Shown piece after piece: positions 5,142 to 5,354 of a DNA stretch of 5,684 bases. This DNA is from an uncultured Candidatus Bathyarchaeia archaeon (lineage in GTDB: Archaea > Thermoproteota > Bathyarchaeia > Bathyarchaeales > DTEX01). The position numbers were made by a program, and so were the translations under genes. Where the stretch lies: positions 1-5,684 of the forward strand of contig CAYSEL010000001.1 in the NCBI GenBank assembly GCA_964430035.1, read 5' to 3'. Position 1 is the stretch's first letter, and the number at the start of each line of letters is the position of its first letter. Under the pieces are notes generated by a model. It was not told the DNA's origin, made no database searches, and worked only from the letters and a program-made list of their open reading frames with translations.

Positions 5142-5354
5142 ATCTCTACGCCTCCTTACATGTGGCAGCGTTAAGGAGGAGCCTCCACGTCATTCGAGGA
5201 CATATTGCCATTCAGGCTCAACGCCTACTCTTCTAACCGGAAAGGAGGCTCAGACCGCATTTAGCAACGAGGTCGAACCTCAAATACACAACGATCATCA
5301 CACCTCAACGCCTTCGAAGAGGATAGGCAGATACCGAGACAAAAACCTTCACAT
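5142..5354 (-). ncRNA. Non-coding left end of the IS110 element; candidate bridge (guide) RNA locus
   Basis: The region is 213 nt with no credible ORF in the transposase orientation. It lies directly upstream of an IS110-subgroup recombinase, where bridge RNAs are encoded in characterised family members. Structure is visible by eye. An 8-bp stem GAGCCUCC/GGAGGCUC (5244-5251 with 5179-5186) encloses about 57 nt. There is a GAGGU-UCG-ACCUC hairpin at 5269-5281. A 10-nt direct repeat occurs at 5217-5226 and 5304-5313. The enclosed loop carries a 9-nt match to the right-end/target junction. No fold or covariance model was computed. Confidence 0.4.
5337..5354. repeat. Inverted repeat at the left end of the IS110 element (plus strand agacaaaaaccttcacat)
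   Basis: It is the exact reverse complement of 3893-3910. Confidence 0.9.

What the first reader, a model, noticed from the sequence alone, without database searches (positions are those of the whole stretch)
5203..5211. A 9-nt segment inside the left-end loop is identical to the right-end/target junction (AT + GGCAATA)
The plus-strand sequence tattgccat occurs at 5203-5211, inside the loop closed by the 8-bp stem. It occurs again at 3886-3894. The second copy spans the last 7 nt of the disrupted ADH flank (3886-3892) plus the outermost AT of the element (3893-3894). In element orientation the RNA would read AUGGCAAUA, which is the core dinucleotide plus 7 nt of right-hand target. This is the geometry expected of a target-binding guide. 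A specific 9-mer is expected by chance about once per 262,144 positions, and only a few hundred positions are available in the left end, although I did find it post hoc. I could not find an equally good match for the flank on the other side (..GAGGCGGA-AT). The best there is UUCCG at 5238-5242, only 5 nt.
Basis: seen in the sequence. Interest (0 to 1): 0.65.

Follow-up and report, generated by a model that had tools for sequence, protein, structure and literature searches.

The report
Donor-end guide of an archaeal bridge RNA
The repeated 9-mer is real and belongs to the guide RNA of an IS110-family insertion sequence in a probable Bathyarchaeia genome, but it recognises the element's own right tip rather than the insertion target, so this is an ordinary new member of a known RNA-guided transposon class.

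Summary
TATTGCCAT occurs exactly twice, at 3886-3894 and 5203-5211. The second copy lies unpaired in an internal loop of a conserved RNA structure upstream of an IS110-family transposase.

Twelve related lineages and an uninterrupted ADH orthologue show that the 18-bp inverted repeats are subterminal. The element runs from 5384 to 3887 on the minus strand. It has a 28-nt left extension and a 4-nt right extension (GGCA), and an AT core at each junction (5384-5383 and 3888-3887).

The loop segment AUGGCAAU (5211-5204) copies the element's own right end plus the core. It is therefore the donor-binding guide, and the ninth base is probably chance.

The target guides sit in the upstream loop:
- GCUAAAU (5265-5259) equals the left flank plus core.
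- UUGUGUAUUU (5291-5282) is complementary to the core plus the right flank.

The left-flank guide tracks its own left flank in all 11 close lineages with a usable left junction. The right-flank guide matches its own flank in 7 of 12.

The guide order (top-strand complement first) and the subterminal repeats are IS1111-like, but the RNA lies upstream of the transposase gene. I file it as a new member of a known kind, of modest interest.

The parts
5383..5389 (-). Left target half plus core: GCTAA (5389-5385) and core AT (5384-5383). This is the 3' end of an IS66-family transposase remnant.
   Evidence: It is identical to the 3' strand of loop 1 (GCUAAAU, plus the next G). The same relation holds in all 11 close lineages with a left junction: own match 7-9 nt, cross-lineage matches mostly 3-6 nt.
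5355..5382 (-). 28-nt left terminal extension between the core and the left inverted repeat: GGACAGTGGCTTCGCCTTTAGAGGCGGA. It contains a hairpin, CGCCT (5370-5366), loop TTAG, AGGCG (5361-5357).
   Evidence: It is conserved in all relatives that have a left end. It is constant among copies of the P0005 element whose flanks differ.
5337..5354 (-). Left subterminal inverted repeat, ATGTGAAGGTTTTTGTCT.
   Evidence: 18/18 complementary to 3893-3910.
5164..5313 (-). Bridge/seek RNA gene. An enclosing helix P1 (5312-5303 with 5176-5167) closes two internal-loop arms.
   Evidence: 38 pairs are 96.7% kept in 13 sequences, 9 pairs show compensatory changes, and 0 of 500 shuffles reach this. Read on the antisense strand only 80% of cells would pair. 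A covariance model built from it scores the window at 148.7 bits, which is expected by construction because the window is in the training set, and finds the same fold upstream of the transposase gene in relatives.
5253..5296 (-). Loop 1, the target-binding loop. Stem GAUCG/CGGUC. The 5' strand UUGUGUAUUU (5291-5282) is complementary to the top strand AAAT+ACATAA. Hairpin at 5281-5269. The 3' strand carries GCUAAAU (5265-5259), which equals the left flank plus core.
   Evidence: The 5' strand matches the core plus right flank in the window, L087, L098, L099, L007, L106 and L109.
5179..5251 (-). Loop 2, the donor-binding loop. Stem GAGCCUCC/GGAGGCUC. The 5' strand is UUUCCGGUUAGAAGAGU (5243-5227). 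Hairpin at 5226-5214. The 3' strand is 5213-5187.
5203..5211 (-). The finding itself. [quoted passage not shown] A5203 matches the first flank base.
3921..5141 (-). IS110-family DEDD transposase, 406 aa, intact.
   Evidence: Pfam DEDD_Tnp_IS110 (3.4e-25) and Transposase_20 (5.1e-23). NCBIfam NF033542, 'IS110 family RNA-guided transposase', 273 bits against a cutoff of 140.
3893..3910 (-). Right subterminal inverted repeat.
3887..3892 (-). Right terminal extension GGCA (3892-3889) and the right copy of the core AT (3888-3887). This is the true right end of the element.
   Evidence: Comparison with the empty site in L110. Conservation of ATRGCAAY across lineages.
3881..3886 (-). Right target half, ACATAA. 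This is ADH coding sequence (Y-I-R...).
   Evidence: It is complementary to the 5' strand of loop 1, with one G.T pair. It is homologous to the intact ADH in L110.

Best explanation
The window carries one intact insertion sequence of the IS110 family on the minus strand. It is about 1.5 kb and spans 5384..3887. The host is probably a Bathyarchaeia archaeon.

About 150 nt upstream of the transposase gene (5313-5164), on the same strand, it encodes a bridge/seek RNA. A long-range helix closes two internal-loop arms.

Loop 1 is the target-binding loop. [quoted passage not shown] Its 3' strand has the sequence of the left flank plus core, so it pairs with the bottom strand.

Loop 2 is the donor-binding loop. 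It has the sequence of the element's own right tip: the last two bases of the subterminal repeat, the 4-nt extension GGCA and the core AT. It would pair with the bottom strand there. That would hold the right end of the element, or the circle junction, in the recombinase complex, while loop 1 holds the target. Strand exchange would occur at the shared AT core.

Shown here: the element boundaries, the RNA fold, the strand that carries it, and the match between guides and DNA with covariation.

Inferred from published work on IS621 and on IS1111-type elements: that the RNA is made, binds the transposase and directs recombination.

Not resolved: how the left tip of the element (the right donor half) is recognised.
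For: Family assignment:
- Pfam and NCBIfam both place the transposase in the IS110 RNA-guided family.

Boundaries:
- An intact ADH orthologue gives the empty site, and homology ends at AAT.
- Copies of the P0005 element in about six contexts keep ATGGAAAAC...element...ATGGCAACGTTT constant, and diverge beyond that.
- The core trinucleotide, AAC in relatives and AAT here, is present at both junctions.

RNA:
- 38 pairs, 96.7% kept, 9 with compensatory changes, 0 of 500 shuffles as good, and slid controls at 38-54%.
- 88 G.U cells make the sense strand 96.7% paired against 80% for the antisense strand.

Guides:
- The 3' strand of loop 1 matches its own left junction by 7-9 nt in 11 of 11 lineages. 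Cross-lineage matches are mostly 3-6 nt.
- The 5' strand of loop 1 is complementary to the core plus right flank in 7 lineages.
- The 3' strand of loop 2 equals the right tip, with G>A (L007, L106) and C>U (window) co-changes in RNA and DNA.
- In the window the C>T core change appears at all five places it should: both DNA cores, loop 1 3' strand, loop 1 5' strand (A instead of G) and loop 2 3' strand.
- Relatives only 33-37% identical have the same fold and the same two identities with unrelated sequences.

Literature:
- Bridge RNA loops bind target and donor (PMC11208160, PMC11208158).
- IS1111-type seekRNAs put the top-strand complement 5' of the bottom-strand match and have subterminal repeats with terminal extensions (PMC11187229).
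Against: - There is no expression, binding or transposition data.
- No circle junction was found in the sequences held.
- The guide for the right donor half was not identified. The 5' strand of loop 2 shows only weak, inconsistent relations to the left extension, and in L077 it shows a 10-nt identity rather than complementarity.
- The donor guide and its DNA partner are both well conserved. Covariation for this particular pair therefore rests on two or three events in the close family, plus the distant relatives.
- Metagenome contigs of a multicopy element can be chimeric, so left and right flanks of one contig may come from different copies.
- The window's two flanks are not contiguous in the ancestral genome (an IS66 remnant on one side, mid-ADH on the other). 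The insertion site cannot be rebuilt from this locus alone.
- The single-sequence fold is not significant by itself (z = -1.63).
Confidence: 0.8

Rival explanations
1. The element ends at the inverted repeats (3893 and 5354), the core is the AT at 3893-3894, and AUGGCAAUA is a target-binding guide that reads the core plus 7 nt of the disrupted ADH gene.
For: The exact 9-mer repeat is there. Its position in an unpaired loop is right. Right-hand 'flanks' of relatives do read GGCAAY.
Against: ADH homology to an intact orthologue stops at AAT, and GGC mismatches CTG. In frame that gives WQ instead of the conserved AE. GGCAAC stays constant across lineages whose real flanks and loop 1 guides differ. 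About 28 nt outside the left repeat are equally conserved, so the repeats are subterminal. No guide fits ..GAGGCGGA as a left target. Loop 1 fits the true flanks on both sides.
Confidence: 0.04
2. A repeat that acts at the DNA level. The 9-mer inside the left end would be a second copy of a transposase-binding site that also lies at the right tip, with no RNA involved, or the match is simply chance.
For: Subterminal protein-binding repeats are common in other IS families. A post-hoc 9-mer match among a few hundred positions and several junction registers is only moderately unlikely, on the order of 1e-2. No transcript has been shown.
Against: The segment sits between helices that covary and contain 88 G.U cells that work on one strand only. 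The paired identity persists with unrelated sequences in relatives 33-37% identical. It has an exact counterpart in loop 1 that tracks the variable flanks, which a fixed protein site would not do. The protein family is experimentally RNA-guided (PMC11208160, PMC11187229).
Confidence: 0.08
3. The RNA is transcribed from the opposite strand (the window's + strand). The guides would then read UAUUGCCAU and so on, restoring the IS621-like order in which the left guide comes first.
For: Helices are nearly symmetric on both strands.
Against: Antisense pairing drops to 80%, against 96.7% for the sense strand, because 88 G.U cells become A.C. Single changes such as L092 C>U keep a G.U pair only in the sense strand. 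With the corrected boundaries the sense RNA fits the published IS1111-type order without any inversion (PMC11187229).
Confidence: 0.03

Closest known systems
IS621 bridge RNA (IS110 group; Durrant et al. 2024, PMC11208160; Hiraizumi et al. 2024, PMC11208158)
   Same: It pairs a DEDD/Tnp recombinase with a non-coding RNA upstream of the gene on the same strand. The RNA has two internal loops, the first for the target and the second for the donor. Guides with the sequence of a left half plus core pair with the bottom strand, and guides complementary to the core plus a right half pair with the top strand. The guides are 7-10 nt. A core dinucleotide is shared by donor and target and is found at both junctions.
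   Different: Within each loop the order is swapped: the top-strand-pairing guide is 5' and the bottom-strand-pairing guide is 3'. The repeats are long (18 bp), perfect and subterminal, where IS621 has 2-3 bp. There is a 28-nt left extension with a hairpin. A long-range helix encloses both arms. The core is AT, or AC in relatives, rather than CT. The host is probably archaeal. No Rfam family matches.
IS1111-family seekRNA elements (ISEc11, ISKpn4, ISPst6, ISPa11; Siddiquee et al. 2024, PMC11187229)
   Same: [quoted passage not shown] The two matches overlap in the target. The right extension is short: 4 nt here, and 3 nt in the distant relative L023.
   Different: The non-coding region lies upstream of the transposase gene, not downstream. 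The left extension is 28 nt plus the core, instead of 6-7 bp. Whether the transposase clusters with IS1111 was not tested.
ISMtsp17 and other exceptions noted by Siddiquee et al. (IS1111 relatives with an upstream non-coding region)
   Same: They combine IS1111-type repeats with an upstream non-coding region.
   Different: The paper gives them one sentence only. No sequence was compared here, so any relationship is unknown.

Membership tests
IS110 family sensu lato (RNA-guided DEDD transposons) | Transposase with an N-terminal DEDD (RuvC-like) domain and a C-terminal Transposase_20 domain | tested here: met
   PF01548 3.4e-25 and PF02371 5.1e-23. NF033542 at 273 bits against a cutoff of 140.
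IS110 family sensu lato (RNA-guided DEDD transposons) | A long non-coding end that encodes a structured RNA with two internal loops | tested here: met
   Consensus fold with compensatory changes. The covariance model recovers the fold upstream of the transposase gene in relatives.
IS110 family sensu lato (RNA-guided DEDD transposons) | Loop strands that match both strands of the target and covary with it | tested here: met
   The 3' strand of loop 1 equals the left flank plus core in 11 of 11 lineages. The 5' strand of loop 1 is complementary to the core plus right flank in 7 lineages.
IS110 family sensu lato (RNA-guided DEDD transposons) | Loop strands that match both halves of the donor (the element ends) | tested here: inconclusive
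   The left donor half (right tip) is matched by the 3' strand of loop 2, with covariation. No consistent guide was found for the right donor half.
IS110 family sensu lato (RNA-guided DEDD transposons) | The same core dinucleotide at both junctions and no further target duplication | tested here: met
   AAT at 5385-5383 and 3889-3887. Relatives have AAC at both junctions.
IS110 family sensu lato (RNA-guided DEDD transposons) | A circular intermediate, and RNA bound to the transposase and required for movement | not testable with these tools
   No circle junction was found among the 110 loci held. No expression data are available.
IS1111 group | Subterminal inverted repeats of about 7-17 bp with terminal extensions beyond them | tested here: met
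   An 18-bp perfect repeat. The extensions are 28 nt on the left and 4 nt on the right. The left extension is far longer than the usual 6-7 bp.
IS1111 group | Top-strand complement located 5' of the bottom-strand match in the RNA | tested here: met
   against PMC11187229.
IS1111 group | The long non-coding region (RNA gene) lies downstream of the transposase gene | tested here: not met
   The RNA lies at 5313-5164, upstream of the start codon at 5141. Only 34 nt follow the stop codon.
IS1111 group | The transposase clusters with IS1111 over its full length | not tested
   The best annotated relatives are unnamed 'IS110 family' transposases of Firmicutes at 35-39% identity. No reference IS1111 sequence was compared.
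IS110 group sensu stricto (IS621-like) | Bottom-strand match (left guide) 5' of the top-strand match, and no or very short subterminal repeats | tested here: not met
   The order is reversed and the repeat is 18 bp.

The most novel reading that the evidence does not exclude
This element and its relatives may form a distinct clade of RNA-guided insertion sequences. Members were found in Bathyarchaeia-type metagenomes and, more distantly, in soil metagenomes. The clade would combine IS1111-type traits (long subterminal repeats, and the top-strand-pairing guide first) with a bridge RNA encoded in the left end and closed by a long-range helix. It would also have a 28-32-nt hairpin-bearing left extension between the crossover point and the repeat. 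Recognition of the right donor half may not follow the canonical 'guide complementary to core plus right donor' rule. The window lineage would also show a natural change of the core from AC to AT carried through all the guides.
Probability: 0.25. Interest if true: 0.5.

Novelty: new member of a known kind. Interest (0 to 1): 0.35.

Why it matters
This is a worked example of finding the true ends and all the identifiable guides of an uncultured archaeal bridge-RNA transposon from sequence alone. It also shows how easy it is to mistake the donor guide for a target guide when the repeats are subterminal.

The lineage gives a compact system (a 406-aa recombinase and about 150 nt of RNA) with a readable guide code: a 7-8-nt left-target guide, a 10-nt right-target guide and an 8-nt left-donor guide. 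It includes a natural change of the core dinucleotide. That could inform work on core flexibility and on the diversity of bridge recombinases. It does not reveal a new mechanism.

Tried and rejected
- Rfam at E<=1 found nothing in the window.

- The single-sequence fold of the left end was not significant (z = -1.63) and mis-folds loop 2.

- Exact-protein look-up gave four contigs, all of them the same insertion. The right junction is in all four and the left junction in L001 and L002. They therefore supply no independent flanks.

- The genome scan gave only two loci. One of them, L005, turned out to be a decayed copy in a Bathyarchaeia MAG with the same RNA.

- The metagenome scan returned almost only relatives at 31-40% identity. 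Close relatives were instead fetched one at a time through their proteins.

- An intermediate model was dropped: left end extended, but the right end at the repeat, with GGCAAY as target. Loop 1 explains both true flanks, and the empty site excludes GGC from ADH.

- I first read the guide polarity as a mirror image of IS621 and considered an antisense RNA. The G.U count rejects this. The swapped order is the published IS1111-type order.

- The search for a right-donor guide gave no consistent register. I tried complementarity, wobble pairs included, between the 5' strand of loop 2 and the reconstructed circle junction.

- The one or two bases that follow the two 3'-strand guides match the recombined junction in only 5 of 13 lineages each, by my reading of the sequences printed. 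That is not above chance, so a handshake-guide reading of the ninth base (A5203) is not supported.

- A search for a circle junction (ATRGCAAYNNACAKWGGC) in all held loci found none.

- tblastn against plasmids gave only unnamed IS110-family hits below 40% identity. That did not help with subgroup assignment.

Full report
**What is in the window**

A 406-aa ORF on the minus strand (5141..3921) has the DEDD_Tnp_IS110 and Transposase_20 domains. It passes the NCBIfam model 'IS110 family RNA-guided transposase' at 273 bits against a cutoff of 140.

It is bracketed by a perfect 18-bp inverted repeat, 3893-3910 and 5337-5354. In element orientation (the minus strand), 213 nt separate the outer edge of the left repeat (5354) from the start codon. 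Only 28 nt separate the stop codon from the outer edge of the right repeat (3893).

The 9-mer TATTGCCAT occurs exactly twice, at 3886-3894 and 5203-5211. Rfam finds nothing.

**Independent copies**

The identical protein is on four public contigs, but all four are the same insertion.

Proteins 70-78% identical are common in metagenomes. I fetched their contigs. One of these proteins, P0005, occurs in about six different left contexts and five or six right contexts.

A Bathyarchaeia MAG holds a decayed copy, L005. The closest named relatives of the neighbouring ADH are from Bathyarchaeia and Nitrososphaeria MAGs. The host is therefore probably a Bathyarchaeia-like archaeon.

**The repeats are subterminal**

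In every lineage about 28 nt outside the left repeat are conserved (..ACAGTGGCTTCGCCWTTAGAGGCGG.). So are 6 nt outside the right repeat (GGCAAC, or GGCAAT in the window). In the P0005 copies the sequence stays constant from ATGGAAAAC.. on the left to ..ATGGCAACGTTT on the right, and diverges beyond.

An intact ADH orthologue (P0121, 92% identical) supplies an empty site. It reads ...ACATTTGCTGAAT|ATATAAAAGTTCCTTCTAGAAG. The window reads ...CACATGGCAAT|ACATAAGGGTTCCTTCTAGAAG. Homology ends at AAT. Read in the ADH frame, the window's TGG CAA would give WQ where all homologues have AE. GGCA is therefore element DNA.

The trinucleotide AAT (AAC in relatives) is present at both junctions. By analogy with the family, the core dinucleotide is AT here (5384-5383 and 3888-3887) and AC in relatives.

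**The RNA**

An alignment of 13 left ends gives a consensus fold. A long-range helix P1 (5312-5303 with 5176-5167) encloses two arms, and each arm is a stem, an internal loop and a hairpin.

I removed one unsupported local hairpin and then counted the pairs. There are 38 pairs, 96.7% of cells are paired, and 9 pairs have compensatory changes. No shuffle out of 500 reaches the observed values, and slid controls drop to 38-54%.

Of 491 cells, 88 are G.U. On the other strand these would be A.C, leaving only 80% paired. The RNA is therefore on the transposase strand.

A covariance model built from these sequences finds the same architecture directly upstream of the transposase gene in L005 (130 bits). 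It also finds it, more weakly, in relatives only 33-37% identical: L076, L009, L061, L023 and L077.

**Guides**

I extracted the four loop strands from the alignment and compared them with the junctions.

- **Loop 1, 3' strand.** It has the sequence of the left flank plus core in all 11 close lineages that have a left junction. Examples are the window GCUAAAU(G), P0005 UGGAAAAC, L098 UUUGAAC, L099 AACAUAAC, L104 AAAAUUAAC, L105 UAUUCAACG and L109 ACUCUAAAC. Own matches are 7-9 nt. Cross-lineage matches are mostly 3-6 nt, except where lineages share near-identical guides.

- **Loop 1, 5' strand.** It is complementary to the last bases of the left flank, the core and the right flank.

| Lineage | Guide (5' strand of loop 1) | DNA it pairs with | Note |
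|---|---|---|---|
| Window | UUGUGUAUUU | AAAT-ACATAA | one G.T pair |
| P0005 | AAACGUUU | AAAC-GTTT | |
| L007 | UUCCCAGUUU | AAAC-TGGGAG | |
| L106 | UUGUGUGUUU | AAAC-ACATAC | |
| L109 | GCAACGGUUU | AAAC-CGTTAC | |
| L099 | GGGUU | AACCCAA | |
| L098 | UUACCAGUUU (7-nt match) | AAC-TGGT | read after an 80-nt insert in its right end |

  L104, L105, L107 and L108 match poorly or only with a bulge. L102 has an aberrant right end.

- **Loop 2, 3' strand.** It has the sequence of the right tip: AUGGCAAC with ATGGCAAC in most lineages, AUAGCAAC with ATAGCAAC in L007 and L106, and AUGGCAAU with ATGGCAAT in the window.

In distant relatives the same two identities hold with unrelated sequences. 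In L023, GCAAAGTA is at the left junction and ATAAGAGA just outside the right repeat. In L076 the pair is TAAAGAAAC and GTAAGAAA. L009 has CAAAGAGTTT at the left junction. L077 has AGAGCAACC outside its right repeat.

The partner of loop 1 is hypervariable between lineages. The partner of loop 2 is nearly constant and lies inside the element. Loop 1 is therefore the target-binding loop and loop 2 the donor-binding loop.

In the window the core change C>T appears in both DNA cores and in all three identified guides.

**Consequence for the finding**

The 9-mer AUGGCAAUA (5211-5203) breaks down as follows:
- 2 nt of the repeat tip
- the 4-nt right extension
- the 2-nt core
- 1 flank base

It is the left-donor guide, not a target guide.

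Both lie inside the element.

**Comparison with known systems**

[quoted passage not shown] Here the strand rules are the same but the order within the loop is swapped. This is what Siddiquee et al. report for IS1111-type seekRNAs: the top-strand complement lies 5' of the bottom-strand match. They also report subterminal repeats and terminal extensions, and they note rare IS1111 relatives with an upstream non-coding region (PMC11187229).

The element therefore works like a bridge/seek-RNA transposon, has IS1111-like ends and guide order, and has the RNA gene in the IS110-like position. Archaeal IS110 recombinases are already catalogued (bioRxiv 10.1101/2024.06.21.599552).

**Open points**

I could not find a consistent guide for the right donor half, which is the element's left tip.

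The two flanks of the window copy are not contiguous. The left flank is the 3' end of an IS66 transposase remnant. The right flank is ADH from about codon 126 onward, and the ADH 5' half is absent. The left flank matches the loop 1 guide 8 of 8, whereas the orthologous ADH site would match 6 of 7. This suggests two guide-compatible sites and a later recombination or deletion, but that is inference.

**Verdict**

This is a new member of a known kind.

Noticed in passing
window 5385-5630 (-) and 3207-3892 (-): The two flanks of the insertion sequence come from different genes. On the left is the 3' end of an IS66-family transposase remnant, whose stop codon TAA (5387-5385) abuts the core. On the right is a zinc ADH that starts at about codon 126. 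The ADH N-terminal half is missing from this locus and from the 15-kb contig L001. The left flank fits the left-target guide 8 of 8, while the orthologous ADH site (GCTGAAT) would fit 6 of 7. This hints at recombination or deletion between two guide-compatible sites.
   Followed up: partly
window 82-616 (+): A remnant of a uroporphyrinogen decarboxylase-like gene. Its C-terminal part (279-616) carries an in-frame TAA at 441-443, and the upstream part lies in another reading frame. Only a weak URO-D Pfam hit remains (E = 9.5e-4 for 465-614). The genome neighbourhood looks rich in pseudogenes.
   Followed up: partly
L087-L095, 8 nt upstream of the left target half: Four independent left flanks of the P0005 element share TAGAYGKA immediately upstream of ATGGAAAAC. 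This is complementary, with G.U pairs, to the 5' strand of loop 2 (UUCCGUUUA). One variant pair changes together (L092: TAGATGGA with UUCCAUUUA). It was not seen in other lineages. Several right flanks of these copies are also homologous to each other, so the target may lie inside a repeated sequence.
   Followed up: partly
L077 about 254-263 versus RNA position 79 (loop 2, 5' strand): A 10-nt identity (CACCCCTACC) links the 5' strand of the donor loop to the DNA immediately outside the left repeat. Weaker same-strand similarity occurs at the equivalent place in L023 (AACACGG) and in the window family (UUAGA..G..G against TTAGAGGCG). This may be a clue to how the left tip is recognised.
   Followed up: partly
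L104 after 1809; L097/L098 after the stop codon; L102 and L108 flanks: Aberrant ends in relatives. L104 has a tandem duplicate of the last 61 nt (the transposase 3' end plus the right end). L097 and L098 carry an 80-nt insert inside the right end, followed by a second CATATGGCAAC. L102 has an inverted copy of its left end and flank on the right. L108 has an inverted copy of its right end and flank on the left. These could be assembly artefacts or products of aberrant recombination.
   Followed up: no
window 5149-5186 (-): The 3' strand of helix P1 and the CCUCC of the loop 2 stem are complementary to the GGAGG ribosome-binding site (5155-5151), 10 nt upstream of the transposase start codon. 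An alternative hairpin, CUCCUUA...UAAGGAG, would compete with P1. Folding of the bridge RNA and translation of the transposase could therefore be coupled.
   Followed up: no
L005 1700-1750: The decayed Bathyarchaeia copy sits next to what looks like a tRNA 3' end (GGTTCAAACCCGC). Its target, GGGAAAC|GTTTTCTAGGG, resembles that of the P0005 element.
   Followed up: no
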